Source of the DNA: a virus
Reading direction: 5' to 3' (one strand)
DNA length: 64,000 nt
Virus record (IMG/VR): IMGVR_UViG_3300045999_008055
Part shown: positions 8,486-14,984 of the stretch, piece by piece
Layout of the letters: each line of letters opens with the position of its first letter
Position numbering within the stretch: position 1 is the first letter of the stretch
Notes under the pieces: model-generated
Told to the model about the DNA's origin: nothing
Databases searched by the model: none
What the model saw: only the letters and a program-made list of their open reading frames with translations
Program-made: the position numbers and the translations under genes

Positions 8486-8836
8486 ATGCCAATATATCTC
8501 TATCAACATCCAAAGACAAAACAAATAAAAGAGATCATACAAAGTGTTCATGATAAACATGAATATATTGAAAATGGAGTTAAATGGGATAGAATTTTTA
8601 CTGCTCCAGAATTAAATACTCATGATAAACTTGGCGCAGAATCATCTTCGCAAAAGTTTGCAGAATTAACTGGTAAACAAAAAGGTACAATGGGAGATCT
8701 TTGGGATCGTAGCAAAGAACTTTCTGAGAAAAGAAAGAAGCTCTATGGTGGAGAAGATCCTGTAAAAAAGAATTATTATAAAGACTGGTCTAAGAAACGA
8801 AAAGGAAAAGTACACCCAAAAAGTCAATCCGAGTAA
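8486..8836 (+). CDS. FmdB-like phage protein with a degenerate zinc ribbon
   Basis: N-terminal MPIYLYQHPKT resembles MPxYeYxC but lacks the Cys. Confidence 0.55.
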   Translation: MPIYLYQHPKTKQIKEIIQSVHDKHEYIENGVKWDRIFTAPELNTHDKLGAESSSQKFAELTGKQKGTMGDLWDRSKELSEKRKKLYGGEDPVKKNYYKDWSKKRKGKVHPKSQSE

Positions 8837-8903: not shown

Positions 8904-11168
8904 TTGAGTCTTATGAATATAAAAGTAAAAAAAAGAAATGGCGTTACAGAAAAATTTGATATAGAAAAAATTCATAAAGTAATAAGTTGGGCTATAAAAG
9001 ATTTAGCTGGTGTTAGTTTGACTGATGTAGAGATTAATGCTAAAATAAATATACATGAAGGTATTTCTACAAAAGAAATACATAAACTTTTAATTGAATC
9101 TGCGGCAAACATGATTAGTGTTGAGAAACCAAACTATCAATATGTAGCTGGAAGATTATTAAATTATCAACTAAGAAAAGATGTTTGGAAAGGTAAGCAT
9201 GCTCCAAGATTATTAGAATTCTTAAATCAAGGATTAAAAAATAAAATCTATGATCCAATTATATTGCAAAAATATGATGAAGATGAGTTGAATAAAATGG
9301 GAGAGTTTATTGATCATGAAAGAGATTATAATTTTACTTATGCAGGAGTAAAACAACTGTGCGATAAATACCTAATAAAAGATCGGGTTACAGGAAAAAT
9401 ATATGAAACTCCTCAATTTGCTTATTTATTGATATCTGCATATGCTTTTATAAATTACCCTAAAGAAACACGATTAAATTATGTTAGAAAATTTTATGAT
9501 GCTATAAGTAAACATAAGATTAACTTACCAACTCCAGTAATGGCTGGAGTAAGAACTCCAAGTAAAAATTATGCAAGTTGTTGCTTAATTGGTGTTGATG
9601 ATAGCAAGGATAGTATTACTGCTAGTGCAACTGCCGTAAGTATGGCTACAGCTAGTAGATGCGGAATAGGTATAGATGTATCAAAGATAAGAGCTATTGG
9701 ATCACCTATTAAAAATGGAGAAGTAGTTCATACTGGACTAATTCCATTTCTTAAGATTTACGAAAGTAGTGTTAAGGCATGGCAACAAAATGGTCTTCGT
9801 GGTGGAAGCGCTACTTGCAATATTCAATGGTGGCATTACGAAATCGAAGATATTGTAGTATTAAAAAATAATGCAGGAACAGACGACAATCGTGTTCGTA
9901 AATTAGATTATACAGTTGGTATGAGCAAATTATTCTACGATAGAGTCTTAAAAGATGAAGAGATTACTTTATTTAACACCGCTGAAGTTCCAGAGTTATA
10001 TGAAGCTTGGGGAACGAAAGATTTTGATAAGGTCTATAAAGAATGCGAAGCTAAAAAACTAAAAATAAAAAAGAAAGTATCTGCTCGTAAATTATTCTCT
10101 CTAATCATTAAAGAAAGAGTTGAAACTGGTAGAATCTATATCCTTAATGTAGATCACGCTAATAATCATGGAGCTTGGTTAGATAAAGTTACGATGAGTA
10201 ATCTTTGTACAGAAGTTATCCACCCTACTATCCCATTGAATGATTATCATGATAAAAATGGTGAAATTGGTATGTGTATTCTTTCGGCAGTAAATATGCT
10301 AGAAATAAAAAACTGGCAAGATCTTGAAAAGACTTGCGATCTTATCGTAAGATTTCTTGATGAAATCATTGAAATTCAAGATTACTTTAATATTGCTGCT
10401 GAAAATTTTGCAAAAAAACGCCGTAGTCTTGGAATAGGAATAACTAATTTAGCAGCATATTTTGCTAAAAATGAATTAAAATATACATCTGATAAAACAA
10501 TTCCAGTTCTTGATGAATGGATGGAGCATTTCCAATACTATCTCCTTAAATCAAGTTTAGAACTTGCTAAAGAAAAAGGAAAATGTGAAAAGTTTGATAG
10601 AACAAAATACTCTAAAGGAATTCTTCCTATTGATACTTACAAAGATAAGATCGATGAATTTTGTAAAAGAAAGCTATCTCTTGATTGGGAAAAATTAAGA
10701 AAAGAGATTAAAGAATTTGGATTAAGACATTCTACATTATCATCTTGTATGCCATGTGAAAGTAGTTCTGTAATTCAATCATCAACAAATGGCGTAGAAC
10801 CTATTCGCAGTTTAATTACTTATAAGATGAGTAAAATGGGTAAATTACCAGTACTAGTTCCTGGGGTTGGCAAATATGATGATAACTATGAACTAGCATA
10901 TGACTTCAAGGATAATTCTGGTTTACTAAAAATAAATGCCGTTATTCAAAAATACATTGACATGGCAATATCAACTAATGTATACTACAATTATTCTCAT
11001 TATGAAAATAATGTTCTTCCAGACGCTAAGGTAATGAAAGAGATCATGCAAGCGTACTCTCTAGGTTTAATTAGTCTTTATTATAATAATACAGACGATG
11101 GAGATAAGGAGCAGCTAATGAATCAGAAAGAAGATCGTGATTGTTCCTCTGGAGCGTGTAAATTATAA
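8904..11168 (+). CDS. nrdA: Class Ia ribonucleotide reductase alpha subunit with ATP cone
   Basis: VKKRNG ATP cone, PTPVMAG, ASCC, SNLCTE, MCILS and C-terminal CSSGACKL. Confidence 0.97.
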   Translation: MSLMNIKVKKRNGVTEKFDIEKIHKVISWAIKDLAGVSLTDVEINAKINIHEGISTKEIHKLLIESAANMISVEKPNYQYVAGRLLNYQLRKDVWKGKHAPRLLEFLNQGLKNKIYDPIILQKYDEDELNKMGEFIDHERDYNFTYAGVKQLCDKYLIKDRVTGKIYETPQFAYLLISAYAFINYPKETRLNYVRKFYDAISKHKINLPTPVMAGVRTPSKNYASCCLIGVDDSKDSITASATAVSMATASRCGIGIDVSKIRAIGSPIKNGEVVHTGLIPFLKIYESSVKAWQQNGLRGGSATCNIQWWHYEIEDIVVLKNNAGTDDNRVRKLDYTVGMSKLFYDRVLKDEEITLFNTAEVPELYEAWGTKDFDKVYKECEAKKLKIKKKVSARKLFSLIIKERVETGRIYILNVDHANNHGAWLDKVTMSNLCTEVIHPTIPLNDYHDKNGEIGMCILSAVNMLEIKNWQDLEKTCDLIVRFLDEIIEIQDYFNIAAENFAKKRRSLGIGITNLAAYFAKNELKYTSDKTIPVLDEWMEHFQYYLLKSSLELAKEKGKCEKFDRTKYSKGILPIDTYKDKIDEFCKRKLSLDWEKLRKEIKEFGLRHSTLSSCMPCESSSVIQSSTNGVEPIRSLITYKMSKMGKLPVLVPGVGKYDDNYELAYDFKDNSGLLKINAVIQKYIDMAISTNVYYNYSHYENNVLPDAKVMKEIMQAYSLGLISLYYNNTDDGDKEQLMNQKEDRDCSSGACKL

Positions 11169-11171
11169 TCT

Positions 11172-12236
11172 ATGAAAAGTGTTTTAAATTTAAAAAATAT
11201 AGATCATACAAAACAACCATTGTTTTTTGGAGAAGATCTTAATCTTCAAAGATATGATCGTTTTAAATATCCTATATTCTTTGAATTATTTAAAAAACAA
11301 GAAGAGTTCTTTTGGTGGCCACATGAAATAGCATTAAATAAAGATCGTAGCGATTATAAAGATCTAGCTGGACAGGAAAGGTTCGTATTTGATACTAACT
11401 TAAAATTTCAAACTCTTGGAGACAGTATGCTTTCAAGAAGTATTCATTCTTTAAAAGATTATGTAAGTAATCCAGAGCTTGAAATATGCATGAATACTTG
11501 GCAAAGATTTGAAGGTATTCATAGTTATTCTTATTCATATCTTCTTAATAATGTTCATCCAGATGCAAGTAAATTTTTTGATAGCATTATGGAAGATAAA
11601 GAAATCGTATCTCGCGCAGAGCTTATTAGAAATAATTTTGATAAAATCCTTGGTGATGATGATAAGAAAGACTTAAAACAAAAAATATTTGATTGTATCC
11701 TTTCTGTTAATGTAATGGAAGGTCTTGTATTCTATGTTTCGTTTGCTTGTTCTTTTTATTTTGGATATCGTGGTAAAATGGAAGGTAATGCTAAGATTAT
11801 TAAATTTATTCAAAGAGATGAAGCTTTACATTTTGCTACAACTCAAAACTTAATCAAGATTCTTAAAGAAGAAGATAAAGAAGGTTTTACTTCTATTGTA
11901 AAGAAGAGTGAAGATAAAGTTTATGCCTTCTATGAACAAGCTGCAAAAAATGAAATTGAATGGGCAGAGTACCTTTTTAGTAAAGGTTCTTTATTGGGTT
12001 TAAATGCAGAAGTTCTAGCTGGTTATTCTAAATGGCTTTGTGATGCTCGTTTACGATCATTAGGATATAAGAAAATTTTTAATCAAAAAGACAATCCTAT
12101 TGCTGGCTGGTTAGATAGTTATCTTGACAGTAGTAAGGTGCAAGTAGCTCCACAAGAAACAGAAATATCTACTTATAAGATTGGTGCAAGAAAAACTGAT
12201 ATATCTGATGATGATTTTGGAGATATGAAGCTATAA
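11172..12236 (+). CDS. nrdB: Class Ia ribonucleotide reductase beta subunit
   Basis: FFWWPHE, EGIHSYSY, EGLVFYVSF, RDEALH and VAPQETEISTY motifs. Confidence 0.97.
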   Translation: MKSVLNLKNIDHTKQPLFFGEDLNLQRYDRFKYPIFFELFKKQEEFFWWPHEIALNKDRSDYKDLAGQERFVFDTNLKFQTLGDSMLSRSIHSLKDYVSNPELEICMNTWQRFEGIHSYSYSYLLNNVHPDASKFFDSIMEDKEIVSRAELIRNNFDKILGDDDKKDLKQKIFDCILSVNVMEGLVFYVSFACSFYFGYRGKMEGNAKIIKFIQRDEALHFATTQNLIKILKEEDKEGFTSIVKKSEDKVYAFYEQAAKNEIEWAEYLFSKGSLLGLNAEVLAGYSKWLCDARLRSLGYKKIFNQKDNPIAGWLDSYLDSSKVQVAPQETEISTYKIGARKTDISDDDFGDMKL

Positions 12237-12857: not shown

Positions 12858-13373
12858 GTGACTCTTTCGGAAAGAGATATTGATTTTTTTGCAAAGAAAT
12901 TAAGTTTATCGCCAGAAAAGACTTTTCTACTCTTGCAAGATCCAGATTGTTTGCCAGAAATTCTAAATAAAGTAGCAGAAGATAATATAGATGGAATTGT
13001 AGATATTAGTTTTCCTGTTTTTGCAGAGCTAACGATTATAAAATATAGTAAAGATTTAAACTATTCTTTTGAAGAAAAAGAGTATGTGTCAGAAACAGTT
13101 GGAACAAAATTTTATGATCTAATAGAATATCCGCTACAAAATAAATACTTTTTTACATTAGAGCAAAATGAAGATACTGCTAAATCTGTATTAGTATTTC
13201 TAGGATTCTTTTATAAAAGTTTACAGAAAACTAGAAGATGTTATCCATCAGAAAATGTTTATTATAATATAGCAAAAAATGGTTTTGAAAATTCAGAAAA
13301 ACAAGAAATATCTTATCATCTTAAAGATTGGATTAAAGTACTAAGAATCATACATAATGAAGTTTGGTATTAA
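12858..13373 (+). CDS. Hypothetical protein
   Basis: 171-aa ORF. Confidence 0.65.
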   Translation: MTLSERDIDFFAKKLSLSPEKTFLLLQDPDCLPEILNKVAEDNIDGIVDISFPVFAELTIIKYSKDLNYSFEEKEYVSETVGTKFYDLIEYPLQNKYFFTLEQNEDTAKSVLVFLGFFYKSLQKTRRCYPSENVYYNIAKNGFENSEKQEISYHLKDWIKVLRIIHNEVWY

Positions 13374-13384
13374 TACGATATCCT

Positions 13385-13702
13385 TAATTATTTAACTTTT
13401 CTTTGATATCCAAAAGGGCTTTACCTCCAAATTTTATATATCTGAAGTTAAGTATTATCAATCCAACTTTTCTTTTGACTCCAAATTTATCACGATCTCA
13501 GCGATAAACGGGCCATCGCACTTATGGGTCAGAGGTAGCTTCGACCACTACATTCTGCGATGCCTATAGCTACATTCCCTTCAAAAGCCATATTATGTAC
13601 AAAAGAAGGTTTTAATAGTTGTCAGCCCTTTAGACATTGCTATCTCAAGGATTGATAGTTGATTTTTTGACATCAACAAACTGCTCTAATTGGAAGCTAT
13701 GT
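13385..13702 (-). ncRNA. Unassigned structured non-coding RNA (~320 nt; boundaries approximate)
   Basis: ORF-free gap that is more GC-rich than its flanks, with its own minus-strand promoter, several hairpins and long-range complementary segments, two of which cross. Confidence 0.6.
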
Positions 13703-13708
13703 TAAATT

Positions 13709-13737
13709 ATATTAGAATAGATTTGTCTTTTTGTCAA
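13709..13737 (-). promoter_or_regulatory. Sigma70-like promoter pointing into the putative ncRNA
   Basis: TTGACA (13737-13732)-17 nt-TAATAT (13714-13709); no substantial ORF downstream. Confidence 0.6.
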
Positions 13738-13759
13738 AGTTTTTTTATAATATATAAAA

Positions 13760-13969
13760 ATGGAAATAATCAAAAATAAGGCTAAATGGTCAGTTTACTC
13801 TCAAAAATGCATTAAGCATTATAATATAGATAATGATAATATTTATGATGAACCTAGCGAATATCCTTGTATTGCAATACCACAATTAATTTCGGACATA
13901 AATGGCGCAAGAGTTAAATTTAATTTTGTTTATAAAAAAGATTGCCAAAAACTTTTAAAAGCTTTATAA
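13760..13969 (+). CDS. Small hypothetical protein
   Basis: 69-aa ORF; TTGTCT-17 nt-TATAAT ends 8 nt upstream. Confidence 0.65.
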   Translation: MEIIKNKAKWSVYSQKCIKHYNIDNDNIYDEPSEYPCIAIPQLISDINGARVKFNFVYKKDCQKLLKAL

Positions 13970-13999: not shown

Positions 14000-14386
14000 G
14001 GGCCAGATTTGGTTTCGATTTTAGGAATCGGAATTAGAATGCAAGTAGAGGTTTAGGTGGGTCTCTTTAAAAAGCCTTAAAAGTATTAACTGCCAAAACA
14101 GCTAAATACAAAGGTCATATCTCTGCTAGAGTTTCTCTAGTCGAGGAGACCGCTTCTGTAGCTTAAGTTCTACAGCGTGATTACCATGACACATCTAATG
14201 GATAATTGCGTATTTAGATGTCTTTATTTATAAAGTTTTTTTATTCTTTATAGGTTTAGTATTCAAAATAAAATCGCTGAGTATGTTTGTTTTTTCTCTA
14301 TACAAAGCTAAAAACAAAAAGAACTAAACTTGTAGTATTTTAATTTAAATTCACTAAAAGAAGCGGTTCGACTCCGCACTGGTCCA
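14000..14386 (+). ncRNA. ssrA: tmRNA (CCA not encoded)
   Basis: Acceptor stem GGGCCAG (14000-14006) / CTGGTCC (14379-14385) with a G3-U70 pair and discriminator A; 5' GGTTTCGA; T-arm GCGG-TTCGACT-CCGC; resume context TTAACT-GCC; tag frame 14092-14166. Confidence 0.93.
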
Positions 14387-14432
14387 AGTTTATTATTGAG
14401 AATATTTATAATTATATTATACTTAAATATTA

Positions 14433-14984
14433 ATGATTAAAAAAACAAAGATAATTTGTGCCACTTGCAATAAAGAGCATGAAATAAGACTAAGTGATTA
14501 TAAGAGAAAAATTAAAAATGGACAGGATAAATTTTACTGTAGTTTAAAATGTTCTGGAAAAGCTGATTATAAAAATAATCCTCAAAAACTTGAAAAAAAT
14601 AAAGGCAACATATCTTTATTAAAAGGATATGAGGCAAATAGATTAGATGAATATAGTCCATTCAAATATTCATTAAATAAAGCTAAATCCAGAAGTAAAG
14701 AAAGAGGAGAGGAGACAGATTTAACTTTAGAATATTTAAAAGAAATTTATGATAAACAAAAAGGTTTATGTGCATATACTAATATAAAGATGGAAATTCC
14801 TAGATCTTCTCAAGATGAAGATATTAAAAAAAGCCCAACAAAATTAAGCTTAGATAGAATTCATTCTCATACTGGTTATTTTAAAGGAAATGTAGAATTT
14901 GTGTGTTATTGTATTAATGTTATGAAAAATGATTTTACAAAAGAAGAGATGATAAAATTTATAAATCAAATAAAGTGTAAATAA
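14433..14984 (+). CDS. His-Me finger (HNH-like) endonuclease with N-terminal zinc ribbon; putative homing endonuclease
   Basis: CATC...FYCSLKC, GLCAYT and SLDRIHSHTGYFKGNVEFVCYCINVMK. Confidence 0.8.
   Translation: MIKKTKIICATCNKEHEIRLSDYKRKIKNGQDKFYCSLKCSGKADYKNNPQKLEKNKGNISLLKGYEANRLDEYSPFKYSLNKAKSRSKERGEETDLTLEYLKEIYDKQKGLCAYTNIKMEIPRSSQDEDIKKSPTKLSLDRIHSHTGYFKGNVEFVCYCINVMKNDFTKEEMIKFINQIKCK

What the first reader, a model, noticed from the sequence alone, without database searches (positions are those of the whole stretch)
13385..13737. Unassigned ~320-nt pseudoknotted RNA with its own promoter, divergent from tmRNA
Seen: this is the largest ORF-free gap apart from the tmRNA, more GC-rich than its flanks, and preceded by a minus-strand TTGACA-17-TAATAT. 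Exact complementary pairs are 13413-13420/13624-13631 (8 bp), 13456-13464/13649-13657 (9 bp; crosses the first, so a pseudoknot or alternative fold), 13470-13477/13600-13607 (8 bp) and 13514-13520/13556-13562 (7 bp, enclosing an inner GTAG/CTAC hairpin). Local hairpins lie at 13486-13508 (with a G-U pair only on the minus strand) and 13658-13677. I see no RNase P, SRP, tRNA or group I intron signatures. Inference: a large structured phage ncRNA in an RNA-gene neighbourhood, possibly a new class.
Basis: partly seen in the sequence, partly recalled or inferred. Interest (0 to 1): 0.8.

Follow-up and report, generated by a model that had tools for sequence, protein, structure and literature searches.

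The report
New knotted phage RNA, twin motifs
A ~310-base gene in an uncultured T4-like water phage makes a separately transcribed, intricately folded non-coding RNA of no known family. It carries two single-stranded segments that evolution keeps letter-for-letter identical, which is a testable clue to a job that is still unknown.

Summary
Window 13385-13702 (minus strand) is a real gene for a ~310-nt structured RNA with its own sigma70-type promoter (13737-13709). I collected 74 distinct homologues in four clades of related uncultured myophages; the closest cultured relatives are the pelagimyophages.

Covariation supports 12 helices, including two pseudoknots and a long-range closing helix. 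In clades 1-3, 94% of cells are paired against 31-52% in slid controls. In clade 4, 98.5% are paired against 29-47%. One long-range pair and the inner GTAG/CTAC hairpin are not.

No Rfam family matches. There is no homologue in 185,579 bacterial and archaeal species genomes or in cultured phages. The gene sits either back to back with the tmRNA gene, as here, or just upstream of nrdA, so it is a portable, trans-acting unit.

New here: two single-stranded 17-18-nt elements (13465-13482 and 13394-13411) change during evolution but always stay identical to each other (142 of 143 cells; at least 21 parallel changes). No complementary partner exists in the RNA or in the phage genomes.

Function is unknown. 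My best guess is a rigid scaffold that presents two copies of one recognition element to a common outside partner. The scan had already found this family on other DNA.

The parts
13709..13737 (-). Promoter: -35 TTGACA (13737-13732), 17-nt spacer, -10 TAATAT (13714-13709). The likely start is the A at 13702.
   Evidence: Found by the consensus scan. The -35 is invariant and the -10 is TAnnAT in all homologues, while the spacer varies.
13385..13702 (-). RNA gene. Conservation starts at ACAUAG (13702) and fades after about 13388.
   Evidence: 88-98% nt identity in 35 related loci, where the flanks are about 80%. There are 74 distinct homologues. G-U pairs occur only on this strand.
13683..13697 (-). 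H1 hairpin (4 bp; loop CCAAUUA).
   Evidence: 3 of 4 pairs change on both sides; 100% of cells paired. CCGC/GCGG in clade 4.
13658..13677 (-). H2 hairpin.
Evidence: Compensatory changes.
13649..13657 (-). H10, 5' strand (long-range closing helix).
   Evidence: Pairs with 13456-13464. Each clade has a different 9-19-bp duplex here. In clade 4, 9 of 14 pairs covary.
13615..13643 (-). H3a/H3b hairpin. Its loop (13624-13630) is the 5' strand of pseudoknot PK1.
   Evidence: Covariation in H3a and H3b.
13578..13609 (-). H4 hairpin. It is peripheral: long in clades 1-2 and short in clade 4.
   Evidence: 4 of 5 pairs covary; 3 of 6 in clade 4.
13568..13573 (-). PK2, 5' strand.
   Evidence: Pairs with 13535-13540 in the loop of H6. 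98% of cells paired and 2 pairs covary.
13511..13564 (-). H5 (13557-64/13511-19), enclosing H6 (13543-46/13527-30) and the PK2 3' strand (13535-40).
   Evidence: H5: 3 pairs covary, 97.5% paired. H6: 3 of 4 pairs covary. The same helices are found in clade 4.
13486..13508 (-). H7 hairpin (GNRA loop in clades 2 and 4).
   Evidence: 6 of 8 pairs covary.
13465..13482 (-). Internal copy of the twin motif (GGAGUCAAAAGAAAAGUU). It is single-stranded and lies between H7 and the 3' strand of H10.
   Evidence: Invariant in clades 1-3. It changes in concert with the tail copy.
13456..13464 (-). H10, 3' strand.
13424..13447 (-). H9 hairpin. Its 3' strand is GGAGG and is followed by UAA.
   Evidence: 98% paired, mostly through G-C/G-U changes. 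The length varies between clades.
13414..13420 (-). PK1, 3' strand.
   Evidence: Pairs with 13624-13630. 4 of 7 pairs covary and 99.4% of cells are paired. In clade 4, 3 of 7 pairs covary.
13394..13411 (-). Tail copy of the twin motif (GGAUAUCAAAGAAAAGUU), at the 3' end after PK1.
   Evidence: Same as for the internal copy: 142 of 143 comparable cells are identical between the copies across 13 haplotype pairs.

Best explanation
SHOWN
- 13385-13702 (minus strand) is a free-standing gene for a ~310-nt non-coding RNA of a family not catalogued anywhere I could search.
- It carries a host-type (sigma70) promoter that is conserved in all four clades. I read this as an early phage promoter.
- The RNA folds into a compact core. 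A long-range helix (H10) closes a multi-helix junction that holds H3, H4, H5/H6 and H7.
- Two pseudoknots lock the core. PK1 ties the loop of H3 to the 3' region behind H9. PK2 ties the strand before H5 to the loop of H6.
- The gene moves as a unit between two genomic places, so it acts in trans rather than on a neighbouring gene.

INFERRED
- The fold is a rigid scaffold whose working parts are two single-stranded 17-18-nt elements. One enters the core next to H10. The other is the 3' tail behind PK1.
- Both copies are held identical through many sequence changes. Nothing complementary exists in the RNA or in the phage genome.
- I therefore think both copies are read by the same outside partner. 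That could be two subunits of one protein, or two copies or visits of one host nucleic acid. The RNA would then work as a bivalent binder: a sponge, decoy or guide in a ribonucleoprotein during early infection.
- The nature of the partner is unknown.
For: Gene and strand:
- The promoter is conserved while its spacer varies freely.
- The RNA is more conserved than the flanking genes.
- G-U pairs are allowed only on the minus strand.
- There is no ORF of 30 aa or more on the minus strand. One-nucleotide indels among homologues fall inside the short + strand ORFs.

Fold:
- A1 (51 sequences): 68 pairs, 94.1% paired against 31-52% when partners are slid; 38 pairs with changes on both sides against 8-15.
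- A2 (22 clade-4 sequences): 66 pairs, 98.5% paired against 29-47%; 27 pairs with changes on both sides against 2-4.
- H10 is a different duplex in each clade.

Trans action:
- In 46 of 51 distinct sequences of clades 1-3, no gene lies downstream on the RNA's strand. The RNA is convergent with the 171-aa gene.
- In clades 3 and 4 it sits 110-130 nt upstream of nrdA.
- The neighbouring genes are variable cargo.

Twin motif:
- 13 haplotype pairs, with 142 of 143 cells identical. None of 10,000 shuffles reaches this (mean 99.8).
- On a tree built without the motifs, there are at least 21 changes in each copy, and they are the same in both.
- The only column that fully tracks the informative motif positions is the other copy.
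- No complement was found inside the RNA or in genomes that are 50-87% complete.
Against: - There are no expression data.
- No terminator follows the tail, so the 3' end is inferred from where conservation stops.
- No partner was identified.
- If a protein reads the motifs, its specificity would have had to toggle repeatedly. The first motif position switches G/A at least 4 times. That is awkward for a protein and fits a nucleic-acid partner, or a need for identity as such, better.
- The phage records are 50-87% complete, so a phage-encoded complementary strand is not fully excluded.
- Short-patch gene conversion between the two copies could mimic selection for identity.
Confidence: 0.4

Rival explanations
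1. Identity is needed for its own sake. The two copies bound a 66-75-nt unit (H10 3' strand, H9, PK1 3' strand). A polymerase copies this unit and jumps from the end of one copy to the other. This could be rolling-circle or strand-transfer copying, as with the ACA-1/ACA-2 repeats of DRT2 ncRNA or retroviral R regions. Alternatively, the purine-rich copies act as primer tracts.
For: The two copies are identical and no third covarying element exists. A template jump is one of the few mechanisms that selects for identity of two direct repeats. DRT2 loses defence when the homology of its two ACA motifs is broken (paper 10.1101/2024.05.08.593200, read).
Against: - No reverse transcriptase (PF00078) was found in five records that are 70-87% complete.
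- The unit length varies from 66 to 75 nt, is not a multiple of three, and all concatemer frames carry stops. A DRT2-like endless ORF is therefore excluded.
- The unit is an integral part of the fold (H10, PK1).
- 17-18 nt is far more than a jump needs.
Confidence: 0.13
2. It is a ribozyme, and the two identical segments are its two substrate or processing sites. Examples would be self-processing into a two-piece RNA held together by H10 and PK1, or an RNase P-like processing enzyme for the phage tmRNA and tRNAs.
For: - The RNA has size, two pseudoknots and many invariant unpaired nucleotides, as large ribozymes do.
- The stretch H9-GGUAAAG-PK1 resembles P3-J3/4-P4 of RNase P RNA. That is a comparison from memory with the E. 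coli sequence.
- The gene is linked to the tmRNA gene in clades 1 and 2.
Against: - No RNase P, intron or small-ribozyme model matches, even at E<=10 and in six diverse members.
- The order of the P4-like strands is the reverse of RNase P. The region between them does not fit a circular permutation.
- No internal guide complementary to the motifs exists.
- In clades 3 and 4 the gene is far from the tmRNA gene.
Confidence: 0.12
3. It is a cis-acting leader (riboswitch-like) of the nrdAB operon.
For: In clades 3 and 4, 33 of the 80 nrdA loci fetched have the RNA 110-130 nt upstream of nrdA on the same strand, with no terminator between. In clades 1 and 2 it stays at the 3' end of the same operon in antisense orientation.
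Against: - In the window and most homologues, no gene lies downstream of the RNA.
- nrdA has its own promoter-like region, with NrdR-box-like palindromes between it and the RNA.
- The RNA keeps its own invariant promoter wherever it sits.
Confidence: 0.07
4. The twin motifs work at the DNA level, overlaid on an RNA gene. They would be two operator or iteron sites for a co-evolving phage DNA-binding protein, or part of a replication origin primed by this transcript. Alternatively, their identity is kept by gene conversion alone.
For: Operators of phage regulators change in concert with their protein (general knowledge). Direct repeats lie behind a strong promoter. A regulator-like 116-aa ORF lies upstream of nrdA.
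Against: - The motifs are invariant over clades 1-3, where the rest of the RNA diverges by about 30%.
- Copy-specific differences persist in all clades: one extra nucleotide, one A fewer, and G versus A at one position. Conversion would erase these.
- The spacing of 66-75 bp is not in helical phase.
Confidence: 0.08
5. It is not a functional RNA but a decayed gene, a small-protein gene or a chance structure.
For: Short ORFs exist on the + strand (34 and 31 aa). Read in one frame, the two motif copies would give similar 7-9-residue peptides (my reading).
Against: - There is massive compensatory covariation.
- Frames are broken by indels among homologues.
- The tail copy in clade 4, and the variants whose motif starts with A, have no in-frame start codon.
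- Conservation is higher than in the neighbouring genes.
Confidence: 0.02

Closest known systems
ROOL and GOLLD RNAs (Rfam; large 'ornate' RNAs of phages and prophages)
   Same: Large, intricately folded non-coding RNAs carried by phages, often beside tRNA-type genes, with no assigned biochemical function. Each is a free-standing gene.
   Different: There is no sequence or structure match in Rfam. This RNA is about 310 nt rather than about 580-800 nt. It has a different architecture. The twin identical single strands have no counterpart that I know of.
RNase P RNA (bacterial type A/B)
   Same: A hairpin followed by GGNAAAG and a long-range helix, which resembles P3-J3/4-P4. Similar size and pseudoknotted core. 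Sits next to an RNase P substrate gene (tmRNA) in clades 1-2.
   Different: All RNase P models fail. The two P4-like strands are in the opposite order. No S-domain or L15-type elements are seen. The resemblance is about 11 nt and was judged from memory.
DRT2 defence ncRNA (template with ACA-1/ACA-2 repeats)
   Same: A pseudoknotted ~280-nt scaffold in which two identical short segments bound a unit, and in which that identity is functionally required (10.1101/2024.05.08.593200).
   Different: There is no reverse transcriptase next to the gene or elsewhere in the phage. The repeats are 17-18 nt rather than 3 nt. The unit is part of the fold and gives no open concatemer frame. This is a phage gene, not a host defence gene.
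Protein-sponge RNAs (CsrB/RsmZ type; 6S RNA as another protein-binding RNA)
   Same: A trans-acting RNA that presents repeated single-stranded sites on a folded scaffold to titrate a dimeric partner.
   Different: The motifs of those RNAs are short and constant (GGA) and sit in hairpin loops. Here there are two long sites that change in concert. There is no Rfam match.
T4 stable RNAs C and D (tRNA-region RNAs of unknown function; from my own knowledge)
   Same: Small stable RNAs of a T4-type phage, encoded beside tRNA-type genes, with function unknown.
   Different: They are much shorter (about 120-140 nt). I have no evidence of homology and did not test it here.

Membership tests
RNase P RNA | Match to the covariance models of bacterial, archaeal or minimal RNase P (P1-P4 core, CR-I to CR-V). 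| tested here: not met
   No hit at gathering score or at E<=10 in the window, and none at E<=5 in six diverse homologues.
RNase P RNA | The 5' strand of P4 (after P3) lies upstream of the 3' strand of P4. | tested here: not met
   The P4-like 3' strand (13624-30) precedes the GGUAAAG strand (13414-20). The region between them does not fit a simple circular permutation.
tmRNA (one-piece or permuted two-piece) | tRNA-like domain plus a tag reading frame; match to the Rfam tmRNA models or to ARAGORN. | tested here: not met
   Only 14000-14387 is found. Nothing is found in 13200-13950 at E<=10.
Group I / group II intron | Interrupts a host gene; match to the intron models. | tested here: not met
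   The RNA has its own promoter and lies in an intergenic place with no split ORF around it. There is no Rfam hit.
ROOL / GOLLD / HEARO / OLE / raiA (large orphan RNAs in Rfam) | Match to the family's covariance model. | tested here: not met
Riboswitch or cis-regulatory leader | Lies in the 5' UTR of the regulated gene in all members. | tested here: not met
   No gene lies downstream in clades 1-2 (46 of 51 distinct sequences of clades 1-3). The RNA is upstream of nrdA only in clades 3-4.
DRT2-type template ncRNA | A reverse transcriptase gene is adjacent; the repeat unit gives a stop-free concatemer frame. | tested here: not met
   PF00078 is absent from 5 phage records. The period is 66-75 nt and every frame has stops.
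Type III antitoxin RNA (ToxI-like) | Tandem array of about 36-nt repeats next to a ToxN-type toxin gene. | tested here: not met
   Only two 17-18-nt copies exist, embedded in a unique fold. The neighbours are RNR genes, glycosyltransferases and endonuclease VII-like genes.
New family defined here | TTGACAAA promoter; helices H1, H2, H10, H3+PK1, PK2+H5/H6, H7 and H9; twin single-stranded motif. | tested here: met
   All of these features are present in the window copy and in 74 distinct homologues.

The most novel reading that the evidence does not exclude
The letter-for-letter co-evolution of two single strands, with no complementary partner anywhere in the phage, marks a mechanism that needs sequence identity as such. 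One possibility is a programmed polymerase jump or strand transfer on a phage RNA. Another is a bivalent guide that pairs twice with one fast-evolving host nucleic acid. Either would be a new way for a lytic phage to use a structured RNA.
Probability: 0.2. Interest if true: 0.9.

Novelty: categorically new. Interest (0 to 1): 0.78.

Why it matters
Large RNAs with conserved pseudoknotted folds are rare. Nearly every one whose function was solved turned out to be a ribozyme, a riboswitch, a guide or the core of a ribonucleoprotein. This one appears in every related phage contig that covered either of its two genomic places, within a widespread group of T4-like aquatic phages. It is better conserved than the neighbouring protein genes, and it moves as a self-contained promoter-plus-gene unit.

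The twin-motif signature turns "function unknown" into concrete experiments: change one copy, change both copies, and fish for what binds them. It is also a pattern that standard covariation tools do not look for, because it is identity covariation rather than complementarity. Scanning other orphan RNAs for it could be rewarding.

Tried and rejected
- Pairing with the phage tmRNA: duplex energies are no better for cognate than for swapped motif/tmRNA pairs, and the registers differ. A whole-molecule duplex run was uninformative.
- Partner inside the RNA: the best duplexes fall at different places in different homologues and do not covary. The H1-loop match to the clade-4 motif is absent in clades 1-3 and is not compensated in L218.
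- Alternative hairpin between the tail copy and the PK1 3' strand: it fits L191 and L195 but not L219 or L257.
- Complement elsewhere in the phage genomes: I found only the gene itself, chance hits, or same-sense hits inside ORFs.
- Dimerisation through a palindrome in the tail (GAUAUC, GAGCUC): not kept in L219, L261 or L194.
- Mini-ORFs in the motifs: no start codon in many members.
- Endless-ORF concatemer: excluded.
- Homologues in bacterial genomes: two collection scans gave only chance motif hits.
- Cultured phages: no blastn match, and nothing in the nrd region of Pelagibacter phage HTVC008M.
- A covariance model of the whole RNA was not built, because its length exceeds the practical calibration limit. 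nhmmer profiles were used instead.

Full report
**What is there.** The window is a ~27% GC phage-like contig with ribonucleotide reductase genes (nrdA 8904-11168, nrdB 11172-12236), HNH-type genes and a one-piece tmRNA gene at 14000-14387. By RNR large subunit, the closest cultured phages are the T4-like pelagimyophages HTVC008M and Mosig, at 53% identity. Related IMG/VR contigs reach 118-136 kb. With ORFs of 50 aa or more, 13374-13759 is the second largest ORF-free gap in the window, after the tmRNA gap. It has a GC peak of 0.38-0.41, against about 0.25 around it, and the minus strand is the G-rich one. A TTGACA-17-TAATAT promoter lies at 13737-13709 on the minus strand.

**Relatives.** I fetched loci through the two flanking proteins, an invariant 17-mer and nrdA. 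These were screened with nhmmer profiles.
- The search gave 74 distinct homologues: 51 in clades 1-3 (alignment A1) and 23 in a divergent clade 4. Twenty-two of the clade-4 sequences are in alignment A2. L208 is the outlier.
- Clade 4 first appeared as a 16.5-bit full-length hit in L185.
- In 35 close loci the RNA is 88-98% identical, where the surrounding 2.5 kb is about 80-91% identical.
- TTGACAAA is invariant and the -10 is TAnnAT, while the 17-nt spacer varies freely. Conservation begins 7 nt after the -10, at ACAUAG.
- No Rfam family matches the window region or six diverse members.
- Two scans of 185,579 species genomes gave only chance motif hits.
- Cultured phages have nothing similar.

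**Fold.** I read the helices from the alignments and then counted pairs.
- On A1: 68 pairs in 12 helices; 94.1% of cells form standard pairs against 31-52% when the partner is slid by 1-3 columns; 38 pairs change on both sides against 8-15 in the slid controls.
- On A2, an independent clade: 66 pairs; 98.5% against 29-47%; 27 pairs against 2-4.
- Order of elements, 5' to 3' (window coordinates in the parts list): H1, H2, H10 5' strand, H3a/H3b with the PK1 strand in its loop, H4, PK2 5' strand, H5 enclosing H6 whose loop holds the PK2 3' strand, H7, a single strand, H10 3' strand, H9, three unpaired nucleotides, PK1 3' strand, and a single-stranded tail.
- H10 is a different 9-19-bp duplex in each clade.
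- G-U pairs occur on the minus strand only (for example 22 U-G cells in H1 and 37 in H9). This fixes the strand.
- H4 shrinks in clade 4 and H9 varies in length, so both look peripheral.
The pair 13470-77/13600-07 and the inner GTAG/CTAC hairpin are not supported.

**Genomic place.**
- In clades 1-2 the gene lies after the nrd operon. It is convergent with the 171-aa gene and back to back with the tmRNA gene. The gap to the tmRNA gene is 110-310 nt in nearly all such loci, 776-898 nt in two, and usually holds a 69-aa ORF.
- In clades 3-4 it lies 110-130 nt upstream of nrdA on the same strand, 6-20 kb from the tmRNA gene. NrdR-box-like palindromes lie between the RNA and nrdA.
- Several contigs that seemed to lack the RNA beside the tmRNA gene carry the clade-4 type upstream of nrdA. 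For example, the contigs of L009, L010 and L012 carry it in L194, L193 and L195.
- The genes next to it are variable cargo, such as glycosyltransferases and a methyltransferase-like ORF.
- A promoter-plus-gene unit that is relocated and inverted, with no gene downstream in most members, argues for a trans-acting RNA and against a leader.

**The twin motif.** Two single-stranded elements are invariant in clades 1-3: 13465-13482 (internal, just before the H10 3' strand) and 13394-13411 (tail, after PK1). They are near-copies of each other.
- In clade 4 both are different, and again they match each other.
- Within clade 4 they vary further, always together.
- Over all 74 sequences there are 13 haplotype pairs. 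Nine positions vary, each fully concordant, and 142 of 143 comparable cells are identical. Ten thousand shuffles of the tails among haplotypes average 99.8 (sd 6.1) and never reach 142.
- On a tree built from the rest of the RNA, the concordant positions need at least 21 changes in each copy.
- Copy-specific differences persist in all clades: the tail copy has one extra nucleotide after the first three, one A fewer later on, and A versus G at one position in type I. The flanks are not homogenised. Plain gene conversion is therefore unlikely.
- For the two most variable positions, the only alignment column that fully tracks them is the other copy.
- Nothing complementary exists inside the RNA, in this window, or in eight related records that are 50-87% complete. 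Apparent hits were chance, or were same-sense sequences inside ORFs.

**How it may work.** The gene, the strand and the fold are shown. The function is inferred. Identity of two strands without a complementary strand in the phage leaves three kinds of explanation.
- A common outside partner that reads both copies, such as a dimeric protein or a host nucleic acid bound twice.
- A process that needs identity as such, such as a template jump or strand transfer. DRT2 ncRNA does this with its ACA-1/ACA-2 repeats (10.1101/2024.05.08.593200).
- A parallel homoduplex. I consider this unlikely for a mixed sequence with two register shifts.

Against a phage-driven copying mechanism: no reverse transcriptase is found in five records that are 70-87% complete. 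The unit between the copies is 66-75 nt, is part of the fold, and gives no open concatemer frame. I therefore favour a rigid scaffold that presents two copies of one recognition element to a common partner, with about 35% confidence for that step. The repeated G/A toggling of some positions sits uneasily with a protein reader, and the partner is unknown.

A ribozyme reading stays open. The stretch from H9 through GGUAAAG to PK1 resembles P3-J3/4-P4 of RNase P RNA. But the models do not match and the strand order is reversed.

**Relation to earlier notes of this scan.** The same family was already noted on other DNA.
- Two follow-up reports (e1-5660572, e1-5660577) reached the same verdict: a new pseudoknotted phage RNA, function unknown, closest to ROOL/GOLLD.
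- Three first-reader notes (e1-5737881, e1-5737889, e1-5730116) describe look-alikes beside tmRNA genes.
- This report adds the fourth clade, the second genomic place (upstream of nrdA), independent covariation statistics for two clade sets, and the identity covariation of the twin motif.

**Limits.**
- There are no expression data.
- The 3' end is inferred from where conservation stops, and no terminator is seen.
- The phage records are incomplete.
- The host is unknown.
- The RNase P resemblance and the T4 RNA C/D comparison rest on my own knowledge, not on a test.

Noticed in passing
window 14000-14387 (+): One-piece tmRNA (Rfam 90.5 bits) with an unusually long tag, AKTAKYKGHISARVSLVEETASVA. 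The acceptor 3' strand is followed by the discriminator A with no encoded CCA. Marine relatives (Melnitz, pelagimyophages) are reported to carry two-piece tmRNAs (PMC9004378).
   Followed up: partly
L185:1515-1630; also L084, L070, L083, L101, L121 downstream of the RNA: Between the RNA and nrdA in clades 3-4 lie two NrdR-box-like palindromes (ACACTTGATTATGT and ACATAAATATATCTGT) and a conserved T-rich block. This suggests that a host-type NrdR repressor controls the phage nrdAB genes.
   Followed up: no
L008:4521-5907, L045:150-809, L156:7050-7868, L185:508-1146: Different cargo genes are inserted right next to the RNA gene in different phages: a methyltransferase-like ORF, glycosyltransferases and unknowns. 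The borders of the RNA gene look like an insertion hot spot.
   Followed up: partly
window 14433-14984 (+): The 183-aa ORF just after the tmRNA gene matches endonuclease VII / HNH-type PHROGs (phrog_3322, E 7e-24). In some relatives only its C-terminal two thirds is present (L058-L061, L064).
   Followed up: no
window 13760-13969 (+): A 69-aa ORF with no family match lies between the RNA promoter and the tmRNA gene. It is missing in L058, L062 and L063, where the RNA and tmRNA genes are only about 110 nt apart.
   Followed up: no
window 8486-8836 (+): A 116-aa ORF directly upstream of nrdA has a weak match to a phage transcriptional-regulator PHROG (phrog_385, E 6e-6). It occupies the place where clades 3-4 carry the RNA gene.
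   Followed up: no
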